The notes: generated from the sequence alone by a model not told the origin. A stretch of DNA of 64,000 bases from Kiritimatiellia bacterium (GCA_031552845.1 JAVBMC010000028.1:4047-68046), one strand, 5' to 3'; shown: positions 1-64,000, counted from the first letter of the stretch. Program-made: numbers and translations.

Positions 1-32
1 TGGCGATTTGTTGGGGTTTGGGGGTATTTTGC

Positions 33-61
33 TTGTGGGTTGGGGGAGTTTATGGTATTAT
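33..61 (+). promoter_or_regulatory. Putative sigma70 promoter of rplM-rpsI (extended -10 TGgTATTAT)
   Basis: TTGTGG(33-38)-17 bp-TATTAT(56-61), preceded by TG; weak -35. Confidence 0.4.
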
Positions 62-190
62 TTCTGGCCTTTAGCGGTGTTTGTTGGTTGATGCGCGTTA
101 TTACTCCCTGTCGCGTCACCCCGGCAGAACGGATGTCGCAGTGTGCAGTTCACGGCGGGATTATTGTCTCCGCCATTTTACAGGGCATGA

Positions 191-619
191 ATGAAAACTA
201 CAGTTCCTAAGAATCCGGGCAATGACCGGAAGTGGCATCTGGTGGATGCCGCAGATCAACCTCTCGGCCGATTGGCCGTGAAGATAGCTAATGTGTTGCG
301 CGGAAAGAATCGCGCAGATTTCTCGCCGAGCGTGGATATGGGCGATTTTGTGATCGTCATCAACGCACGGAAGGTCAAACTGACCGGTAAGAAGGAAGAG
401 CAGAAGACTTACGAGACGTATTCCGGCTGGCGCGGCGGTCATAAGTATTTTGACGTCGAGACGATGCGCGAACGTCATCCTGACCGGATGATCAGCGAGG
501 CGGTTTGGGGGATGCTCCCGAAGACGAATAATGCACGGACGATGATGACGCGCCTGCGCGTGTTTGCCGATGGCGAGCACACTCATGCGGCTCAGAAGCC
601 GGAACCGATGCCCCTTTAA
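191..619 (+). CDS. rplM: 50S ribosomal protein L13
   Basis: RKWHLVDA..LGRLA, DMGDFVIVINA, GMLPK, HTHAAQKP motifs; upstream of S9. Confidence 0.98.
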   Translation: MKTTVPKNPGNDRKWHLVDAADQPLGRLAVKIANVLRGKNRADFSPSVDMGDFVIVINARKVKLTGKKEEQKTYETYSGWRGGHKYFDVETMRERHPDRMISEAVWGMLPKTNNARTMMTRLRVFADGEHTHAAQKPEPMPL

Positions 620-642
620 ACCTTCAGCGGAGATTTTGACAA

Positions 643-1041
643 ATGGCTAAAGAAAAAGAAATTGCAGCAGGGACCGGGCGGCGTAAAACAGCTGTCGCGC
701 GCGTCCGTTTGTTCAACGGTGCAGGGCAGTATGAGGTTAATGGCGCGAAGATGGAGAATTATATCCCCAGCGAAGCGTTGCGTAACTTCCTGCTTCAACC
801 GCTGGTGATTACCAGCACTCTGGGCAAGGTGGATCTGAAGGTCAGCGCCAATGGCGGTGGCATTGCAGGCCAAGCCGGTGCGATCCGTCATGGGTTGTCC
901 CGCGCCCTTATCGCGATGGATGCGTCTTTGCGTGACGTTCTGAAAAAGGCAGGCTGCCTGACGCGTGATCCGCGTATGAAAGAACGTAAGAAACCCGGCC
1001 AGCCCGGCGCGCGCAAACGCTTCCAATTCTCAAAACGTTAA
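643..1041 (+). CDS. rpsI: 30S ribosomal protein S9
   Basis: [27 protein letters not shown]-terminal [16 protein letters not shown]. Confidence 0.98.
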
Positions 1042-1146
1042 TATACGTGCGAGTTACAAGTCAAGCGCCCCGCCGTGGCGCCGCATGATTGCGGTTCAGT
1101 GGCGCAGGCGCTTGTGTTTACTTCTAACTTGCCGCACTTTTTTATC

Positions 1147-5998: not shown

Positions 5999-6247
5999 GC
6001 TCATGGCACTCTTTTCCGACGAAGTCGCTGCAATCGTGTTAAGAAAATGTTCGGTTAACGCGGGTAGGTGTGTTCGTCGCGTGTGCCGCGTTACGTTAAT
6101 TTTTTCAGATTAACGAACTCTCCTTTTCATCCAAAGCATCACTTCGACTGTTGTTGCGTGAATGTGTTGTATTTGCGTTCTGCCGGACTGACCTTCGTAA
6201 ATTATTTTCCACCCTTTAGCTGTATAAAGTGGACTGTATTTAAATCA

Positions 6248-6346
6248 GATCACACCTAGCTTCGGAGGTAGAGGTCACTTGACCTCAGAGTACGATCTGA
6301 CCTGACCTCAAAGTCAGAGGTCGCCTGACCTCAGGGTACGAGGTCA
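6248..6346. repeat. Degenerate tandem array, 23-bp period, palindromic core GAGGTCA-N2-TGACCTC
   Basis: TGACCTC at 6280, 6303, 6326; GAGGTC at 6271, 6317, 6340. Confidence 0.85.
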
Positions 6347-6573
6347 GGCGTGATGTGGGGCCGAGTCAAAATCCGCTTTGTTGTTGATGTGGGGTATTAC
6401 ACAGGGTTATTGGGTGATAAGGGGTTGTTTGGTGTTTTATTTGGATTGCGGTTGGGTTGTTCCGGCAATTTGCATGGATGGGGTTGGTGGTGTGAAAATG
6501 TTTGAGCGGGATGTTCTTGGGGAGGGGCGGAAATCTGTGGTGCAGGTCGCGGGCGGGTGGGGGTAGTTTGGGG

Positions 6574-6602
6574 TTGCTTTTGGGCGTGGGGTGTGGTAAA
6601 AT
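6574..6602 (+). promoter_or_regulatory. Putative sigma70 promoter of oxidoreductase 1
   Basis: TTGCTT-17 bp-TAAAAT with TG extension; GAGGAGG RBS before 6638. Confidence 0.55.
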
Positions 6603-6637
6603 GCGGGCAGTTTTTATAAATTAGAGGAGGTTGTGTC

Positions 6638-7996
6638 ATGTCTGGTTTTGAGTTAAACCGCCGTGAGTTTGTGGCGGCGGGCGGGGTGGCTACGGCTGCG
6701 GTGTTGGCGGGGTGTTCGACGTGTTCGGCTGCGGATTTGTATAAGCCGCCGGCTACCGTGAAGAAGGGGCAGTTGATTAAGGATCGCAAGATCAATATCG
6801 CTTGCGTGGGTATCGGGGGCATGGGCGCGGGCGATGCGGGCCATTGGACGAATGAGAATGTGGTGGCTTTGTGCGACGTGGATGATCGTAACGCGGGTAA
6901 GACGCGCGAGAAGTATCCGAATGCGCCGTACTTTAGGGACTATCGTGAGATGCTGGCGAAGCTGGGGGATCAGATTGATGCGGTGACGGTTTCGACGCCG
7001 GATCATATGCACTTCCCGATTGCTTTGGCGGCGATTCAGGCGGGCAAGCATGTGTATGTGCAGAAGCCGCTGACGCAGACGATTCATGAGGCGCGTGCGT
7101 TGCGCGAGGCTGCGCGGATTCATAATGTGAAGACGCAGATGGGTAACCAAGGTCACAGCAATGAGGGGACGCGGCTGTGTAAGGAGTGGATTGAGGCGGG
7201 GGTGATTGGCGATGTGACGCGTGTGGATATTTGGACGAACCGTCCGATTTGGCCGCAGAACTGTCAGTTGCCTACGGATACGCCGCCGGTACCGGAGGGC
7301 GTGGATTGGAATCTGTGGCTGGGCGTGGCTCCACAGCGTCCGTATAATGGTTGTTATATGCCGTTTAAGTGGCGCGGCTGGTGGGATTATGGCTGTGGCG
7401 CGATTGGCGATATGGGCTGTCATACGATGGATGCGGCGTTTTGGGCGTTGGATCTGGCGGCGCCGACTCGCGTGGAGTTGGTGGAGATTGACGGCGGGAC
7501 GGAGTGGTCGCCTGCGAAGGGTGCGATTGTGAAGTTCACGTTCCCGGCGCGCGGCAAGCTGCCGCCTTGCACGATGACGTGGTATGAGGGTTCGAAGAAG
7601 GCGCCGATGCCGCCGACGTTGGAGGCGGGACGTGACTTGGGTAACTCGGGCCAGCTGTTCTATGGTACGAAGGGTATCTTGCACGGCGGCGGCGATTATT
7701 GCAATAGTGTGCGTCTGATTCCGGAGTCTGCGATGGGTGAGTTTAAGAACAAGCCTGAGAAGACGTTGCCGCGCGTTGAACGGGGCGATCATTATAATAA
7801 CTGGCTGGATGCAATCCGCGGCAAGGTGGAGGAGGCGTGCTCGAACTTTGAGCATGCGGCGCCGTTGTCGGAGCTGGGATCGTTGGGTAATCTGGCGATC
7901 CGTTCGGGCAAGAGTTTTAATTGGGATGCGAAGGCGATGAAGGCTTCGGACCCGATTGCCCAGCAGTATGTGACGAAGGCGTACCGTAAGTTCTAA
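6638..7996 (+). CDS. Gfo/Idh/MocA NAD(P)-dependent oxidoreductase, predicted Tat lipoprotein
   Basis: NRREFV twin-Arg signal, LAGC lipobox, GIGGMG, TPDHMH, QKPLT, GDMGCH. Confidence 0.92.
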   Translation: MSGFELNRREFVAAGGVATAAVLAGCSTCSAADLYKPPATVKKGQLIKDRKINIACVGIGGMGAGDAGHWTNENVVALCDVDDRNAGKTREKYPNAPYFRDYREMLAKLGDQIDAVTVSTPDHMHFPIALAAIQAGKHVYVQKPLTQTIHEARALREAARIHNVKTQMGNQGHSNEGTRLCKEWIEAGVIGDVTRVDIWTNRPIWPQNCQLPTDTPPVPEGVDWNLWLGVAPQRPYNGCYMPFKWRGWWDYGCGAIGDMGCHTMDAAFWALDLAAPTRVELVEIDGGTEWSPAKGAIVKFTFPARGKLPPCTMTWYEGSKKAPMPPTLEAGRDLGNSGQLFYGTKGILHGGGDYCNSVRLIPESAMGEFKNKPEKTLPRVERGDHYNNWLDAIRGKVEEACSNFEHAAPLSELGSLGNLAIRSGKSFNWDAKAMKASDPIAQQYVTKAYRKF

Positions 7997-8019
7997 CGGA
8001 TTGCTTTGTAGTGCACGAG

Positions 8020-8053
8020 AGCCGGCCAGTTTCTGGCCGGCTTTTCCTTTTTT
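8020..8053 (+). terminator. Intrinsic terminator
   Basis: GCCGGCCAG-ttt-CTGGCCGGC followed by TTTTCCTTTTTT. Confidence 0.85.
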
Positions 8054-8155
8054 GTGGCACCCATGGGGGTGGTTTTGCGCAGGGTGGTTTAGCTCTCGGG
8101 GGAAGGGCTTGATTTGGCGGAAATATTCGTTTTGCAGGGGATTTTCTTTTTTGAG

Positions 8156-8184
8156 TTGCGTTGCATATCGCTTTATGGTACACT
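8156..8184 (+). promoter_or_regulatory. Putative sigma70 promoter of oxidoreductase 2
   Basis: TTGCGT-17 bp-TACACT with TG extension. Confidence 0.55.
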
Positions 8185-8220
8185 TTGGACGCGTTTGTCT
8201 TTCCTTTATGCGAGGGTAGT

Positions 8221-9582
8221 ATGTCCGATTTTGAACTAAGCCGCCGAAATTTTGTAGTTACCGCCGCCGTGGCTGCCGCTTCGGTGTCGATTGCTAATGA
8301 GAAAATTAAACCGTCCGCTGCGTCGGAAGCGCCGAAGGCGTTGAAAAAAGGCAAGCTGGTTAAGGGGCGCAAGATTAACATTGCCTGCGTGGGAGTTGGC
8401 GGCGTGGGTGAACGCGATGCGTTGCATTGGGAAGACGAGAATGTTGTGGCGCTGTGCGACGTTGATGAGCGCATGAGCACGAAAACGCGCGAACGTTATC
8501 CGGATGCGGAGTTCTATCAGGACTATCGGGAGATGTTTGCCAAGTGCGGGGATAAATTTGATGCGGTAACGATTGCGACGCCTGACCATATGCATTATCC
8601 GATTGCGTTGGCGGCGATTCAGATGGGCAAGCATGTGTTCATGCAGAAGCCGCTGGCGCAAACGGTGACGGAGATGCGAGCATTGGCCAAGATGGCGAAG
8701 CTGCATGATGTGAAAACGCAGATGTGCAATCAAGGGCACAGCAACGAAGGAACGCGGTTGTGCAAGGAGTGGATTACTGCGGGTTTGATTGGCGATGTGA
8801 CGCGTGTGGATGTTTGGACGAACCGTCCGGTGTGGCCGCAGAATTGTCAGCTGCCGGCCGATGTGCAGCAGGTGCCGGAGGGGTTGGATTGGAATTTGTG
8901 GCAGGGCGTTGCCGCGGAGCGGCCTTATAATGAGTGTTATCTGCCGCTGAAGTGGCGCGGCTGGTGGGACTACGGTTGTGGGGCGACGGGCGATGCGTGC
9001 GGGCATACGATGGATGCGATGTATTGGGCTTTGGAGCTGGGGGCGCCTTCACGTGTCGAGCTGACGGCGATTGAAGGCGGGACTGAATGGTCGGCGCCTG
9101 CGGGATTGAGTTTGAAGTACCACTTCCCCAAGCGCGGCGGTTTCCCGGCTTGCGTGGTCAATTGGTATGAAGGCACGAAGCGTCCGCCGCTGCCGCAGGG
9201 GTTGGGCGAGGGCGTAAAGCTTGATCCTGCCGGACAGCTGTTTTACGGCAGCAAGGGATTTTTGTATGCGGTGGGGGATTATTGCAATAGCGTGAGGCTG
9301 TTGCCCGATGCTTTCATGGAGTCTGTCAAGGATAAGCTGCCAGCCAAAACGTTGCCGCGCATTGAGCGGGGCGATCATTATAATAATTGGCTGGACGCCA
9401 TCCGTGGCAAAGTAGATGAAGCGTGTTCGCACTTCGGCTATTCCGCCGGATTGTCCGAGCTCGGCGCATTGGGCAGCATGGCCGCACGTGCCGGACGCAG
9501 CTTCGATTGGGATGCTGCACAGGCCAAGGCCTCAGACCCGTTGGCGCAGCGGTATGTGACCAAAACATACCGTGTGTTCTAG
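8221..9582 (+). CDS. Gfo/Idh/MocA oxidoreductase, Tat signal (paralog 2)
   Basis: SRRNFV signal, GVGGVG, TPDHMH, QKPLA; collinear with 6638-7996; start ATG 8221. Confidence 0.92.
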   Translation: MSDFELSRRNFVVTAAVAAASVSIANEKIKPSAASEAPKALKKGKLVKGRKINIACVGVGGVGERDALHWEDENVVALCDVDERMSTKTRERYPDAEFYQDYREMFAKCGDKFDAVTIATPDHMHYPIALAAIQMGKHVFMQKPLAQTVTEMRALAKMAKLHDVKTQMCNQGHSNEGTRLCKEWITAGLIGDVTRVDVWTNRPVWPQNCQLPADVQQVPEGLDWNLWQGVAAERPYNECYLPLKWRGWWDYGCGATGDACGHTMDAMYWALELGAPSRVELTAIEGGTEWSAPAGLSLKYHFPKRGGFPACVVNWYEGTKRPPLPQGLGEGVKLDPAGQLFYGSKGFLYAVGDYCNSVRLLPDAFMESVKDKLPAKTLPRIERGDHYNNWLDAIRGKVDEACSHFGYSAGLSELGALGSMAARAGRSFDWDAAQAKASDPLAQRYVTKTYRVF

Positions 9583-9700
9583 GAGCGCCGCTGCGGCGGA
9601 CGGTTGACGCTATCAAGCGCCGCAAAATCAGTTTAGGTGTAGGGCGTGGACATCGAGACGTCCTGATGGTTATTAGTATAAGAATTGAAAAGCAGTTATC

Positions 9701-11032
9701 ATGTCAGAAGCAGAATTAAATAACCGTGACATTGCGGCGGCGGCCACACCGGCAACAGTCAGCCGCAATGGACATTACGTGCCGCCGGAAATTGTACGGC
9801 AGGGCAGTTTAGTTATTGGCCGCAAGATCAATATTGCTTGTGTCGGCATTGGCGGTATGGGATTCAACGACGCCGCGCATTGGTCGGGCGAGAACATCGT
9901 CGCGCTGTGCGACGTCGATAACAGAGCCGCGCGCAAAACCCGCGAGCGCAACCCTACGGCGCAGTACTTCCGTGACTACCGGGAAATGCTGGCGAAGTAT
10001 GGAGATAAAATTGACGCGGTGACAGTCACCACGCCTGACCACACGCATTTCTCGATTGCTGTGGCGGTGCTGCAAGCCGGCAAACACCTTTATCTGCAGA
10101 AGCCGTTGACGTACTCTATTGAAGAATCACGCCTGCTGCTTGAGGCCGCCCGCGTGCATGGCGTCAAAACGCAGATGGGCAATCAAGCGCATAGCACTGA
10201 AGCGCCGCGCTTGTGCAAAGAATGGATCGCCGCCGGTGTGATTGGCGACGTCAAGCATATTGATGTTTGGACCGACCGCCCCGTCTGGCCGCAGAACTGC
10301 ATGCCGCCGTCAGCGGGACAGACGCTGCCGGGCGGCGTGGATTGGGAGTTGTGGCTGAACGTGGGGCCGGTGCGGCCCTATCACAGCTGTTATATGCCAT
10401 TCCGCTGGCGCGGCTGGTGGGAGTTCGGTACCGGTGCTTTAGGTGATATGGGCTGCCAGCTGCTCAATGACGCTTACTTCGCTTTGGATTTGAAGGCGCC
10501 TTCGCACGTCGAGCTCCTCGAGGCTGACGGCGGTAACGAACATGCGCCGCCGGCCGGCGCCAAGATCAAATACAGCTTTCCGCAGCGTGGTCACTTTGCG
10601 CCCTGTACGCTCACCTGGCACGAGGGCACGTGCAAGCCGCCGGTTCCGAAAGAACTCAGCGAAGACGGGCACCATATCTCCGCCAACGGAACTTTGTTCT
10701 ATGGCACCAAGGGCATTCTCTATTCAAGCGAGGGTGGCGTCGTGCGCCTGTTGCCCGATGCTGTTATGGCGACCTTCAAGAAGCGTCCGCCTAAATCACT
10801 GCCGCGCATCACCGGGAACGACCACTATTGGAATTGGCTTGAGGCCATCCGCGGCAACATTCCTGAGGCGTGCTCGAACTTTGAATATGCCGCACCGCTG
10901 AACGAACTGTGTGCGATCGGCAATCTCGCCATCCGTTCAGGCCGCAGCTTTGATTGGGACTCCGCGGCGATGCAAGCCTCTGACCCGCAAGCGCAGGCCT
11001 ACGTGCGGCGCAGCGTTTACCGCAAATTTTAA
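9701..11032 (+). CDS. Gfo/Idh/MocA oxidoreductase with degenerate signal peptide (paralog 3)
   Basis: GIGGMG, TPDHTH, QKPLT, GDMGCQ; N-terminus ELNNRDIA lacks RR. Confidence 0.92.
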   Translation: MSEAELNNRDIAAAATPATVSRNGHYVPPEIVRQGSLVIGRKINIACVGIGGMGFNDAAHWSGENIVALCDVDNRAARKTRERNPTAQYFRDYREMLAKYGDKIDAVTVTTPDHTHFSIAVAVLQAGKHLYLQKPLTYSIEESRLLLEAARVHGVKTQMGNQAHSTEAPRLCKEWIAAGVIGDVKHIDVWTDRPVWPQNCMPPSAGQTLPGGVDWELWLNVGPVRPYHSCYMPFRWRGWWEFGTGALGDMGCQLLNDAYFALDLKAPSHVELLEADGGNEHAPPAGAKIKYSFPQRGHFAPCTLTWHEGTCKPPVPKELSEDGHHISANGTLFYGTKGILYSSEGGVVRLLPDAVMATFKKRPPKSLPRITGNDHYWNWLEAIRGNIPEACSNFEYAAPLNELCAIGNLAIRSGRSFDWDSAAMQASDPQAQAYVRRSVYRKF

Positions 11033-11068
11033 AAGCCCTTCTGCCGCAGTGGAAAGGGCGGTGAAACT

Positions 11069-13012
11069 ATGGTTGATTTTAAGAATGTCGAAGTCCGCTT
11101 CGGGCGTGAAGCGCTTTTGGAAGACGTCACCTTTCGGATCAATGCAGGCGAACGTATCGGCATTGTCGGCCCCAACGGTGCGGGCAAGTCTACGCTCTTC
11201 CGATTAATTCTCAATGAGCATGGCCCCGACGGCGGCGAAGTCAACCTTGAGGGTAGCCCGCGCATTGGATATGTGCGGCAGCACCTGCAGCCCGATACAC
11301 CGGATGAGACGCTGCTTGAATACAGCCTGCGCGGCATTCCAGGACTCCACGAAATGGAGCAGCGGATTCACGAGCTTGAGCATCGCCTTGCTGAGTCCGA
11401 TGATGCTGCGGAGAAGAACCGTATCCTGCGCGAACTGGGTGATTTGAGCGTTGAGTTTGAACACCTCGGCGGTTATACGATTGAAGCGCGCGTGAAAGAA
11501 TCGCTCGGCGGCTTGGGTTACAGCACGGCAGACTTTGAAAAGCCTTTCGTCAGTTTCAGCGGCGGCTGGCGCATGCGTGCGGAGCTTTCACGCGTGTTGG
11601 CCTCCAACCCGACGATGCTGCTGCTCGACGAACCCTCCAACTATCTCGACGTGCCTGCTGTTGAATGGTTGCAGCGTTACCTGCGTACATATGAAGGTAC
11701 GCTCGTATTGATTTCTCATGACCGCTATCTGCTGCGCAACCTCACTAACATCACCGTGGAGGTCGATGGCGGCACCGCTACGCGGTATAACGGCGATTTG
11801 GATTTTTACCTGCGCGAGCGAGATGTCCGTTACGAACAGCTGCTCGCCCGCAAAGCCAATCAAGACCGTAAGGTTGAGCAGATGGAAAAGTTCATCGCCA
11901 CCTTCAAAGCCAAAGCCGCCACCGCCGCCATGGCACAAAGCCGCGCTAAGCAGTTGGAGAAGATGGAAATCGTTAAGCTCCCTGCGCGCAGCCGTTCGGC
12001 GGGCGTGCTGCGGATTGCCCCGGCACCGCATGCGGGCGCCGAGATTGTCCGGCTGGAGGCGCTCAGCTTTGGTTACGATGCCGCCAAGCCCATTATCAAA
12101 GATCTGGACTTGCGGATCGTGCGCGGCGAGAAGGTCGCCATCGTCGGTTACAACGGCATGGGCAAAACGACCCTCCTGCGTTTGCTCTCCGGTCAGCGTC
12201 AACCCACTGCGGGCAAGCTCGTGTATGGACATCATGTAATTCCGGGCTACCAGTCCCAAGAGTTTGCCGAGACGATGGATCCCGACATGACCGTCTTTGA
12301 GCTCGCCAAGCAGGTCGCCGGTGTTGTCGAGAAAGATCTGCGCAACTGCCTCGGCAGTTTCGGGTTCTCGCAGGATGACACTTTCAAGCCCGCTAAAGTG
12401 CTCAGCGGCGGTGAGAAAATCCGTTTGGCCTTTCTGCGCCTCTTCCTCTCTCCGCCGAACTTCATGCTGCTCGACGAACCGACCACGCACTTGGATATGG
12501 AAGGGCGCACGGCGCTCGAAGCCGCCCTCAAGAAATACGACGGGACTCTGTGCGTCGTCAGCCATGATATTGAGTTTGTGCGGGCGGTTGCGGATTGCAT
12601 TATTGAGATATCACCCTCAGGCGTACGGCGTTTCCCTGGGGGCTACGACTATTATTCGGAGAAGATCGCGGAAGAACAGGGACGCTCCAGCGCTCAAGCA
12701 TCTCCGTCCGCATCCGCCACAAAAACGAAGGCGGCCGACGAACCGAAGTTGAGCTCCAAGCAGCTGCGCCAGCTACGCGCCCAGCAACGGGCGCAGAACC
12801 AGAATCCGGATCAAAAGCGCCTCAAGGCCAAGGTGGAGAAGTTGGAACGCGACATCGCCGAGCGCGAGCAGAAAGTTGCCGAGCTGACCCAATCCCTGAC
12901 CGTTGACGGGGCCGATTATGCCGGAATCTCAAAACAGATAAAAGCACTTCAGTTCGAACTGCACCAGTTAACGCTTGACTGGGAAGCTACAGCTGTTAAA
13001 ATAGAGGCGTAG
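11069..13012 (+). CDS. ABC-F family ATP-binding protein
   Basis: Two ABC domains (GPNGAGKS/FSGGWRMR/LLDEP; GYNGMGKT/LSGGEK/LLDEPT), no TM, C-terminal coiled coil. Confidence 0.95.
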   Translation: MVDFKNVEVRFGREALLEDVTFRINAGERIGIVGPNGAGKSTLFRLILNEHGPDGGEVNLEGSPRIGYVRQHLQPDTPDETLLEYSLRGIPGLHEMEQRIHELEHRLAESDDAAEKNRILRELGDLSVEFEHLGGYTIEARVKESLGGLGYSTADFEKPFVSFSGGWRMRAELSRVLASNPTMLLLDEPSNYLDVPAVEWLQRYLRTYEGTLVLISHDRYLLRNLTNITVEVDGGTATRYNGDLDFYLRERDVRYEQLLARKANQDRKVEQMEKFIATFKAKAATAAMAQSRAKQLEKMEIVKLPARSRSAGVLRIAPAPHAGAEIVRLEALSFGYDAAKPIIKDLDLRIVRGEKVAIVGYNGMGKTTLLRLLSGQRQPTAGKLVYGHHVIPGYQSQEFAETMDPDMTVFELAKQVAGVVEKDLRNCLGSFGFSQDDTFKPAKVLSGGEKIRLAFLRLFLSPPNFMLLDEPTTHLDMEGRTALEAALKKYDGTLCVVSHDIEFVRAVADCIIEISPSGVRRFPGGYDYYSEKIAEEQGRSSAQASPSASATKTKAADEPKLSSKQLRQLRAQQRAQNQNPDQKRLKAKVEKLERDIAEREQKVAELTQSLTVDGADYAGISKQIKALQFELHQLTLDWEATAVKIEA

Positions 13013-17430: not shown

Positions 17431-17466
17431 ATATTTCTTCTGCGTACGCTGCTAAACGGTTCAATT

Positions 17467-17517
17467 TGTGCCAGTCTTGTGAAATAGAAGTTTCACTAGG
17501 CTGGCGCATTTGTTTCT
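17467..17517. terminator. Long hairpin between convergent genes, likely terminator
   Basis: GTGCCAGTCTTGTGAAA-tagaag-TTTCACTAGGCTGGCGC then ATTTGTTTCT. Confidence 0.55.
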
Positions 17518-17530
17518 CTAGAGTGACATA

Positions 17531-17621: not shown

Positions 17622-17691
17622 TCCCCCTTTACATCATGCCGGATTTTTACGTGCGGCGCGCTTGGCGCGGTGCCACAGGCACATTCATGCC

Positions 17692-54263: not shown

Positions 54264-54311
54264 GCACGGGAACAAAGCGACGCCGCGAACAACTGTTCAC
54301 GCGGCATACTC

Positions 54312-54346
54312 AAAAGCCCCGCAACACTGCGGGGCTTTTTCTTTTT
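54312..54346 (+). terminator. Intrinsic terminator of pgi
   Basis: AAAAGCCCCGCA-acac-TGCGGGGCTTTTT. Confidence 0.9.
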
Positions 54347-54460
54347 CAGCGATCGGCGCAGTGACAAGACAAACATTAATGCCTTTCAGCATGCTCCACC
54401 ATGCCCGCGTGCTGTATCCCACGCATGTGCGTACAGATACCGCAACAGTCGCTTCAAAGA

Positions 54461-54570
54461 ACCAACACGGCCATATTTGAAGAAAAACACTCAAGTGATT
54501 CTGAAAAAACACTTAAGTGTTTTTGTAAAAACATCCGAGTGTTTTTCAAGAAACATTCATATGTTTTTTC
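54461..54570. repeat. Degenerate tandem array, 22-bp period, core AAAAACACTTAAGTGTTTTT
   Basis: Units at 54461, 54483, 54505, 54527, 54549; perfect 20-bp palindrome at 54505-54524. Confidence 0.9.
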
Positions 54571-54892
54571 ATCAATGTGCCCGTATGCGCAACATCATAC
54601 GCATCTATCGTAACCTTTACAAAGCCGAAGCGGACTGTAAAGACGGAGGTTGTGTTGTTGGCGTGCGGAAATATGTTGCGCACCTTTTTATACGGCAGCA
54701 ACACCTTCGACGAGATCGACGAGGCCGATGAAATCGCGTACAAACAATAAAGCAGGCAGTGTCGTCGACGCTGCCGTGCCAAACAAACTCAACAGCTTTG
54801 GCAAAGCCGCCTGCCATATACACTCAACTCGATTTCACCGACTTCTTCGATTTCGTCGATTCTCTCAAGGGGAATGGCGGGCTAATGCCGTA

Positions 54893-55030
54893 CGGCGGTT
54901 TCGGCGAAACGCGCCCTACCTTTTTGAGTAGAGCTGACGCGAGTGAATGTTCAGTGCGTTAGCGGGTAGGGCGGGCTCGCCGAGCGCACCGTGTGGGGTA
55001 ATGTCTTGTAGGGCAGGCTTGGTGGCACCA
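54893..55030. repeat. Cluster of GTAG-type REP-like palindromes
   Basis: GGTAGGGCGCGTTTCGCCGAAACCGCCG (-, 54893-54920); GGTAGGGCGGGCTCGCCGAGCGCACCG (+, 54965); GTAGGGCAGGC (55008). Confidence 0.55.
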
Positions 55031-55034
55031 AAAG

Positions 55035-55070
55035 AAAAAGCCTTGAGAACTTAACGTTCTCAAGGCTTTT
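55035..55070 (-). terminator. Intrinsic terminator after tRNA-Arg
   Basis: AAAAGCCTTGAGAAC-ttaac-GTTCTCAAGGCTTTT perfect stem. Confidence 0.9.
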
Positions 55071-55075
55071 ATAGA

Positions 55076-55152
55076 TGGCGCGCCTGGCGTGGCTCGAACA
55101 CGCGACCGCCGGATTAGAAATCCGATGCTCTGTCCAACTGAGCTACAGGCGC
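55076..55152 (-). tRNA. tRNA-Arg (anticodon TCT)
   Basis: GCGCCTGTAGCTCAGTTGGACAGAGCA-TCGGA-TTTCTAA-TCCGG-CGGTC-GCGTGTTCGAGCCACGC-CAGGCGCG-CCA; 77-nt cloverleaf. Confidence 0.95.
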
Positions 55153-55181
55153 AAAGTCGGCTGCCACTGCCAGCGTAAAGC

Positions 55182-56012
55182 TTAGGCGGCGCCGAGTTGG
55201 AAGCGGACGAAGCGGCGGATTGTCACCGTATCGCCGGTCTTCTTGGAGCACTCATCCACAAGCTGCGTGATGCTTTGCTTGGGCTCTTTAACGAAGGGCT
55301 GGTGAATCAGGCAGATTTCAGAGTAGAACTTCTGGACCTTGCCTTTGAGGATGCCTTCGACGATGTTTGCAGGCTTGCCTTCGACTTGCTTGCGGTAGAT
55401 GTCTTTCTCGCCTTCGAGAACGTCAGCGGGAACTTCTTCCGGGAGCAGGTAGCGTGGCGCAGCGGCGGCGACTTGCAGGCAGAGGTCGTGCAGCAGTGCG
55501 TCGAACGCCGGGTTGGCGGCGGTGTCAGCCTTGGTGCAGCCGAGCTCGACGAGTACGCCGACCTTGCCGCCCATGTGGATGTAGGAGGCAACCTTGCCTT
55601 CGCCTTGCTTGGTGAAGTAAGCGACGCGGCGGATCTTGACGTTTTCGCCGGTGGCGGAAACGAGCGCGACGAGTTCTTCGTTCATCGTGGTGGCGGCGTT
55701 CAGATCGCCCGTGGCAACGGTGGTGGCGACAGCTTTGGTGAACGCGATGAACTTGTCGGTCTTGGCGACGAAGTCGGTTTCGCAGTTGACCTCGGCCATG
55801 CCGATGGCACCGTTGTTCTCGACGGCGTCGATGATGCCCTGGTTGGATTCTTTGTCGGCGCGCTTGACTTGGATGGCCAAACCTTTTTCGCGGAGCTGCT
55901 TGATTGCGGCTTCCTTATCGCCATTGCAGTCAATCAAAGCTTTTTTGCAATCCATCATGCCCGCGTTCGTAATCGAGCGGAGTTCGTTGATATCGGCTAC
56001 TGTGATTCCCAT
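55182..56012 (-). CDS. tsf: Elongation factor Ts
   Basis: LR..T.AGMMDCKKAL, EVNCETDFVAK, YIHMGGK, RFVRFQLG. Confidence 0.98.
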   Translation of the reverse strand: MGITVADINELRSITNAGMMDCKKALIDCNGDKEAAIKQLREKGLAIQVKRADKESNQGIIDAVENNGAIGMAEVNCETDFVAKTDKFIAFTKAVATTVATGDLNAATTMNEELVALVSATGENVKIRRVAYFTKQGEGKVASYIHMGGKVGVLVELGCTKADTAANPAFDALLHDLCLQVAAAAPRYLLPEEVPADVLEGEKDIYRKQVEGKPANIVEGILKGKVQKFYSEICLIHQPFVKEPKQSITQLVDECSKKTGDTVTIRRFVRFQLGAA

Positions 56013-56095
56013 GATTTCTCCTTAATTCAAAGTGGGGTTAGTGGTGATGAAACCGGGTGAAGCGGACAGCGCGGTGCCGTCCGCTTCACGGGGCA

Positions 56096-57037
56096 TTATT
56101 CCGCGGCAGGAGCTTCAACTGCTGCTGCAGGAGCCTCGGTGGCAACCGGCGCTTCAGCGGCGGGAGCTTCGGCTGCGTCTTTCTTCACAGCCGGCTTGCG
56201 TGCGCCGAGAGGTTTGCGTGCGCCTGCGGGACGGTCACCGGCAGGGCGGCGCGGACGTGCAGGACGTGCGGCAGCTTCATCGCCGCCTTCGGAGGCACGC
56301 TTGGCGCGTTCGTCGGCTTGGGTCTTTGCGTATTGGTCGGCGACTTCCTTGATAGCTTTGGAGAGGCCGTCCATGATGATCTTCACGCCGCGGACTGCGT
56401 CGTCGTTGCCGGGGATGACGTAGTCGATCGGGTCCGGGTCGGCGTTCGTATCAACGATGGCCACCACGGGGATGCCGAGGCGCACGGCTTCTTTGATTGC
56501 GTTGGATTCGCGGCAGATGTCCACGACGACGAGCGCGCCGGGCATGTTCTGCATGTCAACGATACCGCCGAGGTTGGCTTGGAGCTTGTCCAGCTCGCGG
56601 CGCAGGGTCGCGGCTTCCTTTTTAAAGGGAGAGAGCACGCCGTTGTTGTTGCGGCCGATGGTCTCGATCTGGCGCATGCGCTTGACGCTGCGGCGGATGG
56701 TCTGGCTGTTGGTCAGCGTGCCGCCGAGCCAGCGTTGGGTCATGTGGAATTGGCCGCAAGCTTCGGCAGCTTCGCGGACGACTTCCTGCGCCTGCTTCTT
56801 GGTGGCGACGAAAAGGACCTTCTTGCCGTCGAGGACGGTCTGCTTCAGGAACTCAGCGGCCTCGTCGATCAGCGTCATGGTCTGGGTGAGGTCGATGATG
56901 TGAATGCCGTTGCGCTTGTCGAAGATGTACGGCTTCATCTTGGGGTTCCAACGCTTGGTCTGGTGGCCGAAGTGCAAACCGGCATCCAGCAAATCTTTCA
57001 ATGCGATACCGGTCTTGTTAGGAGCTAATGCGTCCAT
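56096..57037 (-). CDS. rpsB: 30S ribosomal protein S2
   Basis: LLDAGLHFGHQTKRWNPKM, RWLGGTLTN, DTNADPD..DYVIPGNDDA. Confidence 0.98.
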   Translation of the reverse strand: MDALAPNKTGIALKDLLDAGLHFGHQTKRWNPKMKPYIFDKRNGIHIIDLTQTMTLIDEAAEFLKQTVLDGKKVLFVATKKQAQEVVREAAEACGQFHMTQRWLGGTLTNSQTIRRSVKRMRQIETIGRNNNGVLSPFKKEAATLRRELDKLQANLGGIVDMQNMPGALVVVDICRESNAIKEAVRLGIPVVAIVDTNADPDPIDYVIPGNDDAVRGVKIIMDGLSKAIKEVADQYAKTQADERAKRASEGGDEAAARPARPRRPAGDRPAGARKPLGARKPAVKKDAAEAPAAEAPVATEAPAAAVEAPAAE

Positions 57038-57151
57038 GTCTATTCCTCTAATAGGCTCTTTGAGCCGATTAATCCGCTTTGACGGCTGCCCACACGGACT
57101 GCTGCGTCGTTCGCTTCTTTCACATGCCGAATTTCGGCTGTGAAGGGGTGG

Positions 57152-57160
57152 ATTATAGCA
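57152..57160 (-). promoter_or_regulatory. Extended -10 promoter of rpsB-tsf
   Basis: TGcTATAAT on minus strand about 115 bp upstream of rpsB. Confidence 0.6.
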
Positions 57161-57283
57161 TATTGGCGCCGTGAAACAAAGGAAAAAGTGCTAAAAATGG
57201 GGGTTTCTATTCTTTGTACTTGATTTCGTGACATTTTCTGGTATTTTGTCTCACAGCAAACTGGGTTATATGTGGAAACACGG

Positions 57284-58947: not shown

Positions 58948-58951
<4 letters not shown>
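57284..58951 (+). CDS. Long-chain acyl-CoA synthetase (AMP-binding enzyme)
   Basis: IIYTSGTTGKPKG, LPLFH, EGYGLTEASP, W.RTGD, GR.K.LIV..GKNIYPEEVE. Confidence 0.92.
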
Positions 58952-62451
<3,500 letters not shown>

Positions 62452-62460
62452 ATCCCTCCG

Positions 62461-62489
62461 ACTATACCAAAACTCCCCCCGACATTCAA
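62461..62489 (-). promoter_or_regulatory. Putative sigma70 promoter of dnaE
   Basis: TTGAAT-17 bp (contains G6)-TATAGT with TG extension, 10 bp before ATG. Confidence 0.55.
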
Positions 62490-62721
62490 GGTAGAACGCC
62501 GCCCCTCCCCTGGGAGCGCCGGCGTCCCTGCCGGCATTGCGTGGCCAGCCTCTCAACTTATTACCTAATCACCTATTACATATTACTTCGTCTCTCACGG
62601 CTGCTCGATTTCTTCTGCTGTGGCGTACTGCGGGATAACCTATATTTTTGATAGAGCAGGTTTTTAACTTGTTTTAGTGCCTGAAGCATGTTACTATCAG
62701 TGCTTTTCAAGAGGGAGTATT

Positions 62722-63177
62722 ATGAGGAAAACTTTACGTGTTGTGCTGGCTCTGATGTTGATGTCCGCCTTGGTGCAGGCGGCTGAGGATATCTCCGGGG
62801 TTTGGAGAACGGTTGACGATGAAACTAACGAGCCGAAAAGCCTTGTTCAGATTTACAAGCACCAAGACAAATATTTTGGGCGCGTCATTAAGCTATTCAA
62901 AAATCCGGATGCCACAGCCAAGGACATCAAAGGCTCGCCAAAAATTCTAGGGCTGGATGTCATTTGGAATATGGCGGAGGATGGTAAGGAGTTCTCAGGC
63001 GGCAAGATATTGGACCCGAAAAAAGGCAAAATCTACAGCTGCGTCATCTGGAAGAAAGAAGACGGCAACCTCAATGTCCGTGGAAAAATCGGTCCCTTCG
63101 GGCGTAGCCAAACGTGGTTTCCCACCACAGAACCACCGTTGTCAGGCCTGACTCCGCAAATCCCAGAGAAGGAATGA
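62722..63177 (+). CDS. DUF2147-family secreted protein
   Basis: Signal peptide; I.G.W.T.DD, V.IY, G.ILDP..GK.Y.C, L.VRG.IG..GRSQTW. Confidence 0.88.
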   Translation: MRKTLRVVLALMLMSALVQAAEDISGVWRTVDDETNEPKSLVQIYKHQDKYFGRVIKLFKNPDATAKDIKGSPKILGLDVIWNMAEDGKEFSGGKILDPKKGKIYSCVIWKKEDGNLNVRGKIGPFGRSQTWFPTTEPPLSGLTPQIPEKE

Positions 63178-63280
63178 GGCGTCTGAATTCGTATGAGCTG
63201 TCATAGGGAGGCTCAAATGGAACGTTGGCTGGTGCGTCTTGCGGCAAATTAAGATTGCCGAACGCGCGCATCGGGTTTAG

Positions 63281-63325
63281 CCTCACTCTCCCCTCTACCA
63301 TTGGGAGAGGGGCAGGGGTGAGGGG
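63281..63325. repeat. REP-like palindrome (CCCTCACCCC..CCCTCTCCC type)
   Basis: CCTCACTCTCCCCTCT-accattggg-AGAGGGGCAGGGGTGAGG between convergent genes. Confidence 0.6.
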
Positions 63326-63366
63326 CCTGCGGAGCACGCTACTTCTCTCCCCCGGCTCCGCGTGGT

Positions 63367-64000
63367 TCACAGCTCAACAACGCCCTTACATTTCGGATAA
63401 TCCGAACACCCCCAAAATTGATGCCCGGCACGCTTACCGCTCTTCGCGGTACGCACAACCATCTCCTCCCCACACTTCGGGCACACAGGCACAACCCTCT
63501 GCGAAGGCTCCATCTCCGCCGTTTGCTTTTGCCGTTGACGCTCCACCAACCGTGCACCCGCCAGTTGCTCACTATAACCGCCATCCTCAACAAAAGCTTT
63601 TTCAAGTGCGACGATTTGCTTATCCAGCAGAAAGTTCGCCTGATGAATCAAACAAATCAACGCATTCGCCCGTATCACGGCATCAGCATCCTCCAGCCAT
63701 CTCGCATAAAGCTGCCACCGCTCCTGATCCGTCAAATCAGTCAGATCCGACTGACCATTTCTATTCTGCCGCGGAACATTCCGCACGGCTTCTGCCTCCA
63801 GGGAATCAACCGCCCACTGCGGCAAATGCCGTTGCCGCAGAAAATCCTCATAATCCAGCAACAACTCCTCAAGACTCGCCCGAGCCACATTCACAAGCCG
63901 CAACTCCGTTTGCGACGAAGTCGCCGCGGCACGGCTCCCCTCAGCAATATTTTGCCGACCCGAACGCGCTGCCTGCACCATCTGATCAACAGTACGGCTG
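63367..64000 (-). CDS. Four-helix-bundle protein with suffix domain and topoisomerase-type C4 zinc finger (5' end outside window)
   Basis: DQMVQAARSGRQNIAEGS, VARASLEELLLDYEDFLRQ, F..GGYSE.L, CPKCG..MV.R....G..FWGCS.YP.C. Confidence 0.9.
   Translation of the reverse strand, partial: SRTVDQMVQAARSGRQNIAEGSRAAATSSQTELRLVNVARASLEELLLDYEDFLRQRHLPQWAVDSLEAEAVRNVPRQNRNGQSDLTDLTDQERWQLYARWLEDADAVIRANALICLIHQANFLLDKQIVALEKAFVEDGGYSEQLAGARLVERQRQKQTAEMEPSQRVVPVCPKCGEEMVVRTAKSGKRAGHQFWGCSDYPKCKGVVEL

What the first reader, a model, noticed from the sequence alone, without database searches (positions are those of the whole stretch)
1..64000. Sawtooth strand-composition skew with several origin-like flips inside 64 kb
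Seen: the + strand switches abruptly from C/A-rich to G/T-rich near 6.3, 17.6, 41.9 and 52.3 kb, more weakly near 29.3 and 54.5-55 kb, and probably just left of position 1. It then drifts back to C/A-rich before the next flip. Hand counts of single 60-nt lines: 41101-41160 is 43/60 A+C and 42721-42780 is 47/60 G+T, both + strand coding; 17281-17340 is 38/60 A+C and 17881-17940 is 48/60 G+T. The skew reaches synonymous sites: KPLT is AAG CCG CTG ACG at 7064 but AAG CCC CTC ACC at 39836 in same-strand paralogs. Flips fall at tandem (6.3, 41.9), convergent (17.6) and divergent (52.3) junctions, so transcription direction alone does not explain them. Established: bacterial chromosomes normally show one such polarity switch at oriC and the reverse at ter. 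Inference: fixed sites repeatedly expose single-stranded DNA outward in both directions (local replication initiation or restart, helicase loading, or repair hotspots), leaving a mutational footprint.
Basis: partly seen in the sequence, partly recalled or inferred. Interest (0 to 1): 0.85.

Follow-up and report, generated by a model that had tools for sequence, protein, structure and literature searches.

The report
Sawtooth strand skew in a bacterium
This gut bacterium's DNA strands swap abruptly between G-rich and C-rich at many gene boundaries and drift back over about six kilobases, a strong mutation-like footprint of unknown cause that gene direction does not explain.

Summary
All four hand counts and both codon strings are exact. 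Upward flips at 6.3, 17.6, 41.9, 52.3 and 54.8 kb hold at fourfold-degenerate sites; 29.3 kb does not.

The pattern is genome-wide. Per-gene fourfold GC skew spans -0.75 to +0.75, and gene strand explains 0.6% of the variance. Sharp jumps are mostly upward: 43 up against 12 down at 1.0 or more, 25 against 2 at 1.2 or more. They sit at gene boundaries and decay to zero by about 6 kb on both sides.

There are two layers: a contig-scale skew of about ±0.3 and local two-sided "butterflies". Both show the same base-change proportions and both affect non-coding DNA. That points to mutation, not codon choice.

The 22/23-bp arrays are not enriched at flips once spacer length is controlled. No shared motif, promoter excess, AT excess or DnaA-box cluster marks the flips.

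My best reading is repeated outward single-strand exposure seeded at gene-unit boundaries, probably by R-loops. True extra origins are not excluded. I found no description of this in print.

The parts
5999..6637 (.). Upward flip in a tandem (+|+) spacer. It contains a 23-bp array (6271-6346), followed by about 300 nt of C-poor, G/T-rich non-coding DNA.
   Evidence: Fourfold skew -0.09 to +0.56; sequence; array.
6638..13012 (+). Right wing. The + strand fourfold skew declines gene by gene: +0.61, +0.31, -0.01, -0.21.
   Evidence: contig coordinates minus 4046; Pfam.
17431..17691 (.). Upward flip in a convergent (+|-) spacer; refined position is about 17640.
   Evidence: Fourfold skew -0.17 to +0.65; refined flip at C37:21686.
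17692..21300 (-). Two orphan ORFs (601 and 599 aa, rich in T/H/N/P) whose coding strand is strongly C-rich (-0.63 and -0.80). The + strand is at its most G-rich here.
   Evidence: No Pfam hit, no homologue, only weak collinear similarity to each other.
21655..41704 (+). A 20-kb run of + strand genes. The + strand fourfold skew drifts from +0.59 (purA) to -0.71 (GFO-type oxidoreductase and ThuA) without a reset.
   Evidence: Pfam.
41705..42521 (.). The strongest flip, refined to about 41818. It lies after a terminator-like hairpin with a T-run (read by eye; not listed by the scan) and at the start of the 22-bp arrays (41830-42085). That is about 650 nt upstream of the only consensus promoter (42482-42510).
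   Evidence: Fourfold skew -0.72 to +0.82; refined flip at C37:45864; sequence; arrays; promoter scan 12/12 match.
42522..45420 (.). Right wing that crosses a convergent junction: a + gene at +0.75, then a - gene at +0.28 on the + strand.
50767..52170 (-). Left wing of the 52.3-kb flip: the sigma-54 activator gene, with + strand fourfold skew -0.67.
52171..52610 (.). Upward flip in a divergent (-|+) spacer.
   Evidence: Fourfold skew -0.60 to +0.09; spanned by an independent DNA contig covering 42048-54920.
54264..55181 (.). Upward step between pgi (+) and tRNA-Arg/tsf (-). It contains a 22-bp array at 54483-54533.
   Evidence: Fourfold skew +0.08 to +0.60.
55182..57037 (-). tsf and rpsB. These have the highest RNA-contig depth in the laid 20 kb, yet their coding strand is C-rich (-0.63 and -0.57).
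57038..57271 (.). Sharp downward step at a divergent junction. It was not in the finding.
   Evidence: Fourfold skew +0.60 to -0.25; listed as a down jump.
58948..62556 (-). dnaE, with + strand fourfold skew -0.50. All-base skew falls to -0.385 toward its 5' end.

Best explanation
The sawtooth is a real, mutation-type strand asymmetry with two layers.

Layer 1 is a long-range skew of about ±0.3 at fourfold sites. It is constant over whole contigs and is probably the ordinary leading/lagging-strand skew, though unusually strong.

Layer 2 is a local two-sided footprint at a subset of gene or transcription-unit boundaries. The strand that runs 5'->3' away from the boundary gains G and loses C. 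At twofold sites it gains T over C and G over A. The effect fades to zero by about 6 kb. Seen on one strand, this gives sharp upward flips and slow downward drifts whatever the gene orientation.

Inferred mechanism: events start again and again at these boundaries and move outward, leaving the outward-running strand single-stranded and prone to base damage. I favour R-loops at unit starts and ends as the seed. R-loops need no sequence motif, and RNase HI and endonuclease V were not found. The wings would then be made either by untranslated outward transcripts or by DNA unwinding or synthesis primed from the R-loop. The second option fits the blindness to gene direction and to terminators better.

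Shown: the pattern, its polarity, its spectrum, and its independence from gene strand and from the arrays. Inferred: single-strand exposure, R-loop seeding and the machinery.
For: Real and genome-wide:
- SD of 1-kb skew is 0.206, against 3 of 77 control loci above 0.15.
- Fourfold skew per gene spans -0.75 to +0.75, median 0.04, in 1,641 genes.

Sawtooth shape:
- Fourfold-only jumps are 43 up / 12 down at 1.0 or more and 25 / 2 at 1.2 or more.
- Of 81 cumulative-skew minima, 60 are intergenic. Of 105 maxima, 94 are inside genes.
- Of 77 refined flips, 58 are intergenic. Of the 7 in-gene flips among the 45 strongest, which were listed, 4 lie within 50 nt of a gene end.
- Skew on the outward strand decays +0.57, +0.52, +0.42, +0.28, +0.20, +0.12, 0.00 over 0-8 kb.
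- It declines 5'->3' within 72% of 188 genes of 2.4 kb or more.

Blind to gene direction:
- Gene strand explains 0.6% of variance.
- With contig means removed, neighbours across convergent junctions keep the same + strand skew: r=0.42, n=144.
- In the sign table of 187 convergent junctions there are 31 upward flips, 45 continuations and no downward flip. The other 111 have a near-zero skew on at least one side. Continuity is r=0.43, 0.33 and 0.38 with 0, 1 and 2 predicted terminators.

Mutation rather than codon choice:
- Non-coding spacers show complementary compositions: G .38 / C .13 against C .385 / G .13.
- Ratios of twofold-site and purine/pyrimidine shifts to ln(G/C) are about 0.75, 0.68 and 0.63 in the wings, against about 0.75, 0.75 and 0.59 for the contig-scale skew.

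Other points:
- The right wing at 41.9 kb starts about 650 nt upstream of the only consensus promoter.
- RNase HI (PF00075) and endonuclease V (PF04493) were found in 0 of 5 genomes searched.
- In E. coli, antisense R-loops occur at more than 500 loci, with transcripts over 10 kb, when Rho is compromised (abstract of PMC5909445).
- A second genus of the family (G012) shows the same sawtooth.
Against: - Nothing found distinguishes flip spacers from other spacers. There is no shared k-mer. Outward promoter-like motifs number 28 and 26, against 29.3 and 26.6 in controls, and GC is the same.
- Rho, two RNase HII-family genes, Mfd and UDG are present.
- Two order-level relatives also lack RNase HI and endonuclease V, yet are nearly flat: SD of gene skew 0.12 and 0.21. 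Those losses cannot be sufficient.
- Against the pure transcription version: tsf-rpsB have the highest RNA-contig depth but a C-rich coding strand. Predicted terminators raise rather than lower the odds of an upward flip at convergent junctions: 24-33% against 15%.
- Sharp downward steps exist: 12 at 1.0 or more, and 13 of 156 divergent junctions. These need a second, gene-direction-linked component.
- All gene calls come from my own ORF and codon model, not a standard gene finder.
- No direct data on RNA strands, R-loops or replication were available. The runs found are kept only as contigs.
Confidence: 0.42

Rival explanations
1. True extra replication origins. Many fixed sites fire bidirectional forks that end at variable places, as in human skew N-domains, so fork direction and therefore skew alternate every 10-25 kb.
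For: - The polarity is right, with sharp upward and gradual downward changes.
- It is blind to gene direction and to terminators.
- Its spectrum matches the contig-scale skew.
- N-domains with upward skew jumps at origins are described in humans. I saw only the search listings and abstract starts of PMC2764438 and PMC3320577.
Against: - 77 to 162 flips in 3 Mb share no motif.
- There is no DnaA-box cluster: 12 matches against 9.0±2.9 expected in the window. There is a single dnaA.
- Wings fade to about zero by 6 kb instead of running linearly to the next site. In the long 156-183 kb domain of the contig, gene values fall to near zero and stay there for about 12 kb.
- Flips sit on terminator hairpins of convergent pairs.
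- A separate contig-scale skew of ±0.3 persists. This suggests ordinary long-range fork movement.
Confidence: 0.1
2. A mutational regime that depends on transcription phase, without long single-strand exposure. [quoted passage not shown] This resembles the opposite 5'/3' skews of fungal genes, with the sign reversed.
For: - Flips lie at unit boundaries of every type.
- There is a 5'->3' decline within genes.
- G-rich genes lie mostly in the first third of units: 47% against 11% in the last third.
- The 3' ends are more C-rich when a terminator is predicted: -0.22 against -0.01.
- The fungal precedent reaches fourfold sites, promoters and 3' UTRs (abstract of PMC3315797).
Against: - By strand symmetry, all of these follow from any upward flip placed between genes, so they do not discriminate.
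- Unselected starts of same-strand gene runs (directons), at divergent junctions, average only -0.01 over the first 0.5 kb; +0.11 for runs of 8 kb or more.
- Only 5-21% of junctions of any type show a large upward jump.
- Continuity of + strand skew across convergent junctions (r=0.42) is not expected if each unit sets its own skew.
Confidence: 0.15
3. Selection on strand or transcript composition, for instance G-rich, C-poor 5' RNA to avoid Rho and C-rich 3' RNA to favour it, or selection on RNA folding or nucleotide cost.
For: - At fourfold sites only G and C change (C .16 to .36, G .57 to .36). A and T stay at .12-.15.
- GC at fourfold sites rises in both extremes: 0.80-0.83 against 0.64.
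- Rho is present.
Against: - The same shifts occur in non-coding spacers, with strand-complementary compositions.
- They start about 650 nt upstream of the promoter at 41.9 kb.
- They are independent of which strand is transcribed.
- They share the proportions of the contig-scale skew.
- C-rich 3' ends go with intrinsic terminators rather than replacing them.
Confidence: 0.1
4. A patchwork made by frequent inversions or by imported gene blocks, in a genome with strong replication or codon skew.
For: - The contig-scale skew is strong, about ±0.3.
- Sister genomes have a gene-direction-linked skew. In G001 the coding strand carries 62% C at fourfold sites.
- Coding-strand skews of orthologues in the two genomes are uncorrelated: r=0.03, n=137.
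- Per-gene GC skew has been used in print to infer inversions (listing of PMC6220195).
Against: - A patchwork predicts equal numbers of up and down steps and flat blocks. Observed jumps are 25 up / 2 down at 1.2 or more.
- There are gradients within genes.
- Local values reach ±0.9, beyond the ±0.3 an inversion could give.
Confidence: 0.04

Closest known systems
Classical bacterial replication skew (one switch at oriC, the reverse at ter)
   Same: The polarity is the same: the strand running away from the switch is G-rich. The base-change proportions match the contig-scale layer of this genome.
   Different: There are tens of switches per Mb instead of two per chromosome. Wings are about 6 kb. 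Amplitude at fourfold sites reaches ±0.9. No DnaA-box cluster or shared element is present.
Human skew N-domains (upward skew jumps at master origins, linear decrease between them; PMC2764438 and PMC3320577, search listing and abstract starts only)
   Same: Sharp upward jumps, gradual decline, and jumps located in non-coding regions.
   Different: The scale is kilobases rather than megabases and the amplitude is far larger. Here the decay reaches zero by about 6 kb rather than running linearly to the next jump. The organism is a bacterium.
[quoted passage not shown]
   Same: There is a gradient of GC skew along genes. It reaches fourfold sites and amino-acid use, and extends into flanking non-coding DNA.
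   Different: The sign is reversed: fungi are C-biased at the 5' end and G-biased at the 3' end, whereas here the 5' end is G-rich and the 3' end C-rich. Here the skew also continues across convergent gene pairs.
R-loop-linked GC skew at human CpG-island promoters and terminators (PMC3787257, listing and abstract start)
   Same: G-rich non-template DNA begins sharply at unit boundaries, at both starts and ends of units.
   Different: In this genome the skew at 3' ends has the opposite sign relative to the gene. R-loops were not measured.
Gradient of strand skew with single-strand exposure time in vertebrate mitochondrial DNA (PMC4182315 and PMC3269012, listings; the C>T and A>G details are recalled)
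   Same: Skew at fourfold sites is very large and graded with position. The shifts are T over C and G over A at twofold sites.
   Different: This is a chromosome with many start points and two-sided wings. There is also an extra purine-over-pyrimidine shift, ln(R/Y) 0.80.
R-loop-primed replication (cSDR, oriK) and antisense R-loops in E. coli RNase H or Rho mutants (PMC7045392 and PMC12000880, listings; PMC5909445, abstract)
   Same: These are motif-free, R-loop-dependent start sites. Hundreds of loci and tracts over 10 kb are possible. No RNase HI was found here.
   Different: Those are laboratory mutant states with few mapped oriK regions. Here it would be a natural, long-lasting state strong enough to shape composition. 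This is untested.

Membership tests
Bacterial chromosomal origin (oriC type) | A cluster of DnaA boxes with an AT-rich unwinding element, usually near dnaA | tested here: not met
   DnaA-box-like 9-mers with up to 1 mismatch: 12 in the window against 9.0±2.9 in shuffles, none clustered at a flip. GC at flips is 0.506 against 0.514 in control spacers. The single dnaA lies on another contig.
Bacterial chromosomal origin (oriC type) | One upward polarity switch per replicon | tested here: not met
   43 to 77 strong upward jumps at fourfold sites in 2.98 Mb.
Iteron-type origin (phased 17-23-bp repeats bound by an initiator) | Flips coincide with phased repeat arrays more often than other spacers do | tested here: not met
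   17 of 55 flip spacers carry an array, against 128 of 662 spacers overall (OR 2.0, p=0.03). Among spacers of 300 nt or more it is 15 of 44 against 105 of 373 (OR 1.37, p=0.37).
Multi-origin skew domains (N-domain type) | Sharp upward jumps outnumber sharp downward ones; downward changes are not anchored to gene boundaries | tested here: met
   19 up / 2 down; 43 / 12 and 25 / 2; 94 of 105 cumulative-skew maxima lie inside genes.
Multi-origin skew domains (N-domain type) | Linear decrease from one jump to the next, and measured fork-direction switches at the jumps | tested here: inconclusive
   The pooled wings reach zero by 6-8 kb, and one 27-kb domain has a flat middle. Pooling over variable spacing blurs the shape. 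Fork direction cannot be measured with these tools.
Transcription-associated strand asymmetry (coding strand G+T-rich) | The sign of the skew follows the transcribed strand | tested here: not met
   Coding-strand fourfold skew has median 0.04 and is symmetric. Gene strand explains 0.6% of variance. tsf-rpsB are C-rich on the coding strand.
R-loop-forming GC-skew regions | G-rich non-template DNA downstream of a transcript start, with RNA-DNA hybrids detected | not testable with these tools
   G-rich tracts start sharply at boundaries. No transcript ends or hybrid data exist, because the RNA runs are held only as contigs.
Single-strand deamination footprint (mitochondrial type) | On the exposed strand, T rises over C and G rises over A at synonymous sites, graded with position | tested here: met
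   T/(T+C) falls from 0.70 to 0.45 and G/(G+A) from 0.73 to 0.53 with distance from the flip. By gene class the values are 0.77 (0.23 as C/(C+T)) and 0.87. An added purine excess shows that deamination alone is not enough.
Fungal-type opposite 5'/3' gene skews | Coding strand C-biased at the 5' end and G-biased at the 3' end | tested here: not met
   The sign is reversed here. Thirds of 188 long genes average +0.13, +0.05 and -0.06.

The most novel reading that the evidence does not exclude
A free-living-type bacterium whose chromosome is repeatedly opened at a hundred or more motif-free boundary sites. Short bidirectional DNA synthesis or unwinding, primed by R-loops, would be a natural cSDR-like state in an RNase HI-less lineage. 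These events, not oriC-driven forks or transcription, would then be the main source of point mutations over about a third of the genome.
Probability: 0.13. Interest if true: 0.95.

Novelty: new variant of a known kind. Interest (0 to 1): 0.72.

Why it matters
Strand skew is the standard way to find origins, infer gene inversions and model neutral mutation in bacteria. In this genome a local process outweighs both replication direction and gene direction at synonymous sites. It drives single bases to 70-74% at fourfold sites and visibly reshapes some proteins.

If the cause is mutational, it marks a recurrent single-strand DNA state at gene-unit boundaries that has not been described in bacteria. 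It would also make a natural system for studying R-loop-linked or origin-independent DNA transactions.

There are practical consequences too. Origin prediction from skew, inversion calls from per-gene skew, codon-usage measures and standard gene finders would all be misled in this lineage. My first gene model mis-called the strand of a 600-aa ORF for this reason.

Tried and rejected
- Arrays as flip markers: rejected once spacer length is controlled.
- Shared motif at 77 flips: only composition-driven k-mers appeared. TATAAT is present at 22 of 77 flips against 136 of 1,005 control pieces (uncorrected p=4.5e-4). A full promoter-pattern scan showed no excess and no outward bias.
- AT-richness at flips: no difference from controls.
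- DnaA boxes: at the chance level.
- Gene inventory, comparing three sawtooth or skewed family members with two flat relatives. Rho, UDG, RNase HII-family (two copies), Mfd and DnaA were found in 5 of 5. RNase HI and endonuclease V were found in 0 of 5. Nothing differs between the groups. These are Pfam searches of draft genomes 90-95% complete, so absences mean "not found".
- Public reads: one search found one DNA run (possibly the source of this genome) and two RNA runs, all kept as contigs. Laying them gave no depth, strand or transcript ends. No conclusion about expression or copy number is drawn beyond which genes carry RNA contigs.
- Close relatives for polarising substitutions: none found. 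The best dnaE match in 30 relatives is 62% identical. The best ThuA match in metagenome contigs is 46-47% identical.
- Homologues of the orphan ORF at 17692-19497: none other than itself.
- Simple transcription-unit model (G-rich start, C-rich plateau): fails at divergent junctions, which show 14 up and 13 down. The unselected averages are also small.
- Read-through antisense transcription at convergent pairs: weakened, because predicted terminators go with more flips, not fewer.
- Literature: searches for GC skew with Kiritimatiell*, sawtooth, local GC skew, R-loop/operon, and strand asymmetry with fourfold sites found no description of this pattern in bacteria. Supplements were not consulted.
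- Scripts stopped on errors partway. Only the rows they printed are used.


Full report
WHAT THE WINDOW IS. The window is bases 4047-68046 of a 193-kb contig in a draft genome of 2.98 Mb, 83 contigs and 55% G+C. The closest dnaE matches are MAGs of Kiritimatiellia and related groups at 59-62% identity.

The genes are ordinary housekeeping and envelope genes. They include purA, uppS, cdsA, a secretin, several GFO/IDH/MocA oxidoreductases, ThuA, pgi, tsf, rpsB, dnaE and a sigma-54 activator.

No gene finder is on hand, so I called genes with my own ORF model using three codon classes: 2,100 genes covering 87% of the genome. A first, single-class model picked the wrong strand in the most skewed region. 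The improved model agrees with Pfam for the window ORFs I tested. Ten of 10 have hits. Eight of 10 have hits. In one search, 6 of 10 have hits, and the 4 without are alternative-frame ORFs that the model also rejects.

The 1-kb GC skew in the window runs from -0.385 to +0.554.

At fourfold-degenerate sites, + strand, 2 kb left against 2 kb right:
- 6.3 kb: -0.09 / +0.56
- 17.6 kb: -0.17 / +0.65
- 41.9 kb: -0.72 / +0.82
- 52.3 kb: -0.60 / +0.09
- 54.8 kb: +0.08 / +0.60

The proposed weak flip at 29.3 kb is not upward (+0.40 / +0.07). A flip just left of the window is supported.

An independent contig of a public DNA run spans 42048-54920, so the 52.3-kb flip is not an assembly join.

IT IS GENOME-WIDE AND FAR BEYOND NORMAL. 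Over 5,846 windows of 1 kb the SD of GC skew is 0.206, and 15% of windows exceed |0.3|. Among 77 loci of 6 kb or more around dnaE in other bacteria (80 fetched, 3 shorter ones dropped), only 3 have an SD above 0.15.

In 1,641 genes of 600 nt or more, coding-strand GC skew at fourfold sites has 5th, 50th and 95th percentiles of -0.75, 0.04 and +0.75. In the extreme classes a single base takes 70% (G) or 74% (C) of fourfold sites.

IT IS A SAWTOOTH. Reverse-complementing a sequence keeps an upward jump upward, so any process without polarity gives equal numbers of up and down jumps. That is not what is seen:
- All bases, 1.5-kb flanks: 54 up / 17 down at 0.4 or more; 19 / 2 at 0.5 or more.
- Fourfold sites only: 77 / 35 at 0.8 or more; 43 / 12 at 1.0 or more; 25 / 2 at 1.2 or more.

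Minima of cumulative skew are intergenic in 60 of 81 cases. Maxima lie inside genes in 94 of 105. After refinement, 58 of the 77 strong upward jumps are intergenic: 18 +|+, 16 -|-, 15 divergent and 9 convergent. Of the 7 in-gene flips among the 45 strongest, which were listed, 4 lie within 50 nt of a gene end.

On the strand that runs 5'->3' away from the flip, pooled over both sides, fourfold GC skew decays +0.57, +0.52, +0.42, +0.28, +0.20, +0.12, 0.00 over 0-8 kb. The decline also runs inside genes. In 188 genes of 2.4 kb or more the three thirds average +0.13, +0.05 and -0.06 on the coding strand, and 72% of genes decline.

TWO LAYERS. Gene-level + strand skew stays correlated at about 0.25 out to 50 kb, whatever the relative orientation of the genes. 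Contig means range from -0.41 to +0.45. Of 62 large contigs, 49 have |mean| above 0.15, and 58% of their genes lie on the G-rich strand. I read this as an ordinary but strong replication skew. The draft state prevents a test of that reading.

Removing contig means lowers the variance from 0.204 to 0.135. Sampling noise is 0.007. Gene strand adds nothing: it explains 0.6% on its own, with a coefficient of -0.017. The remaining local layer has a correlation length of 2-4 kb.

BLIND TO GENE DIRECTION, WITH A MINOR DIRECTION-LINKED COMPONENT. With contig means removed, neighbours across convergent junctions keep similar + strand skew (r=0.42, n=144). This is more than across divergent junctions (0.21) or long tandem spacers (0.26).

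Of 187 convergent junctions, 31 flip up, 45 continue with the same sign and none flips down. The other 111 have a near-zero skew on at least one side. Of 156 divergent junctions, 14 flip up and 13 flip down. The downward steps at divergent junctions, such as rpsB | acyl-CoA-ligase-like gene at 57.15 kb, involve genes that are C-rich on the coding strand. Ribosomal-protein genes and tuf are mildly so. This suggests a separate preference for C-ending codons in some well-expressed genes.

Averages by position in transcription units are small beside the spread. The first gene of tight operons averages +0.27 and the last -0.02. The last 0.5 kb before a convergent junction averages -0.21, and the first 0.5 kb after a divergent one -0.01.

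By strand symmetry, any upward flip placed between genes makes "5' G-rich, 3' C-rich" units. Those associations therefore do not tell a transcription-based cause from a DNA-based one.

MUTATION-LIKE, NOT CODON CHOICE. Spacer halves show the same asymmetry with complementary compositions: G .38, C .13, T .28, A .21 against C .385, G .13, A .28, T .21. GC and TA skews correlate at r=0.39.

At twofold sites the outward strand gains T over C (0.70 near the flip, 0.45 far from it) and G over A (0.73 to 0.53). At fourfold sites G replaces C while A and T stay flat. This happens because a purine-over-pyrimidine shift, ln(R/Y) 0.80, is added to the two transition shifts.

Scaled to ln(G/C), the three shifts are about 0.75, 0.68 and 0.63 in the wings and about 0.75, 0.75 and 0.59 for the contig-scale skew. 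The same chemistry seems to act at both scales.

First and second codon positions move the same way. Some proteins are visibly affected: two T/H/N/P-rich orphans on the C-rich side and a W/E/Q-rich repeat protein on the G-rich side.

WHAT MARKS THE FLIPS? NOTHING I COULD FIND.
- The genome has 146 merged arrays of 22/23-bp period. They are twice as common in flip spacers (p=0.03), but flip spacers are long (median 560 nt against 334). Among spacers of 300 nt or more the odds ratio is 1.37, p=0.37.
- No k-mer beyond composition stands out.
- Promoter-like patterns and G+C equal those of 513 control spacers.
- DnaA-box-like words are at chance.
- At 41.9 kb the flip lies between what reads by eye as a terminator hairpin with a T-run and the arrays, about 650 nt upstream of a perfect consensus promoter.
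- At several convergent junctions the flip sits on a terminator hairpin. Predicted terminators raise the share of large upward jumps from 15% to 24-33%.

RELATIVES. No close relative exists in the collections searched.
- G012, same family but another genus, 171 kb sampled: shows the same orientation-blind sawtooth (gene skew -0.58 to +0.78; profile).
- G001, 407 kb sampled: has equally large skew, but it follows gene direction. Opposite-strand neighbours correlate at r=-0.5 to -0.7. Its coding strand has 62% C at fourfold sites and a pyrimidine-rich signature unlike the wings.
- Skews of 137 orthologue pairs between G000 and G001 are uncorrelated, r=0.03. The skew is therefore set by context, not by the gene.
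- G010, G013, G015 and G024 resemble G001, though my gene calls are less secure at 66-70% G+C.
- G022 and G029 are nearly flat.

Rho, UDG, two RNase HII-family genes, Mfd and one DnaA are found in all five genomes compared. RNase HI and endonuclease V are found in none. The inventory therefore does not explain who has the sawtooth.

MECHANISM. The polarity excludes end resection from breaks and fork stalling with downstream re-priming. Both would expose the inward-running strand and give sharp downward steps (my inference from the known polarity of those processes). It allows three classes of process that start at a point and move outward: replication-type synthesis, strand displacement or unwinding, and transcription.

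Against plain transcription:
- Blindness to gene strand.
- The C-rich coding strand of tsf-rpsB, which carry the deepest RNA contigs in the 20 kb laid.
- Indifference to terminators.
- The start of the wing upstream of the promoter at 41.9 kb.

Against true origins:
- Their number.
- The lack of any element.
- Wings that fade by 6 kb.
- The persisting contig-scale skew.

I therefore favour a hybrid. R-loops at unit starts and ends would seed the events. This explains the boundary location without a motif, and it fits the missing RNase HI. The wings would come from untranslated outward transcripts or, better, from DNA unwinding or synthesis primed there. E. coli shows that antisense R-loops can arise at more than 500 loci with tracts over 10 kb (abstract of PMC5909445), and that R-loops can prime replication in RNase H mutants (listings of PMC7045392 and PMC12000880).

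This is inference and none of it is measured. The flat relatives that also lack RNase HI show that something else is needed.

NOVELTY. Searches of the held library found no description of such a pattern in bacteria. The nearest analogues are human N-domains, the reversed-sign 5'/3' skews of fungal genes (PMC3315797, abstract), R-loop-linked promoter and terminator skew in humans, and the exposure-time gradient of mitochondrial DNA.

I class it as a new variant of a known kind, strand-asymmetric mutational footprints. It is unusual for its scale, its amplitude and its independence from both gene direction and the global replication direction.

Noticed in passing
whole genome; in the window 6271-6346, 21542-21609, 41830-42085, 54483-54533: There are 146 merged tandem arrays of 22/23-bp (or 44/46-bp) period. 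They fall into families, each with its own palindromic core that recurs on many contigs. The units are oriented, and the same family appears in both orientations at different loci.
   Followed up: partly
window 17692-19497 and 19501-21300 (- strand): Two adjacent orphan ORFs of about 600 aa, rich in T, H, N, P and Q, each with a hydrophobic stretch near the N-terminus and a shared ETDADGD motif near the C-terminus. They have no Pfam hit. For the first ORF there is no homologue among 5.8 billion proteins. Their composition looks driven by the local C/A-rich strand bias.
   Followed up: partly
window 42482-44306: A perfect-consensus sigma-70 promoter (TTGACA-17-TATAAT) lies just upstream of a 594-aa protein made of tryptophan-rich repeats of about 40 aa (W..L....P.LA..C..W), with a match to DUF285 just above the cut-off (28.9 bits against 25).
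   Followed up: no
G000 contig C39, 37289-46000: dnaA lies next to tuf. The + strand fourfold skew drops sharply from +0.26 (tuf) to -0.90 (dnaA), stays near -0.85 across a divergent junction for 7 kb, and then rises slowly. This is the reverse of the usual sawtooth tooth and is not what an oriC next to dnaA would predict.
   Followed up: no
genomes G000, G001, G012, G022, G029: RNase HI (PF00075) and endonuclease V (PF04493) were found in none of the five Kiritimatiellia-order genomes searched. Two RNase HII-family genes are present in each.
   Followed up: partly
G001 (same family), 407 kb sampled: The coding strand carries 62% C and 23% G at fourfold sites in nearly all genes. This is an extreme gene-direction-linked pyrimidine bias, with a signature different from the sawtooth of G000.
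   Followed up: partly
window, e.g. 1492-3249(-) against 1075-3162(+), and 52641-54275(-) against 52611-54263(+): Very long antisense ORFs (up to 585 aa) overlap real genes. In skewed regions a single codon model picks the wrong strand, so automatic annotation of this lineage deserves caution.
   Followed up: partly
window 41985-42048 and 54920-55102: The independent contigs of the public DNA run break at the 22-bp array and near the tRNA-Arg. One RNA contig lacks one base at 54911.
   Followed up: no
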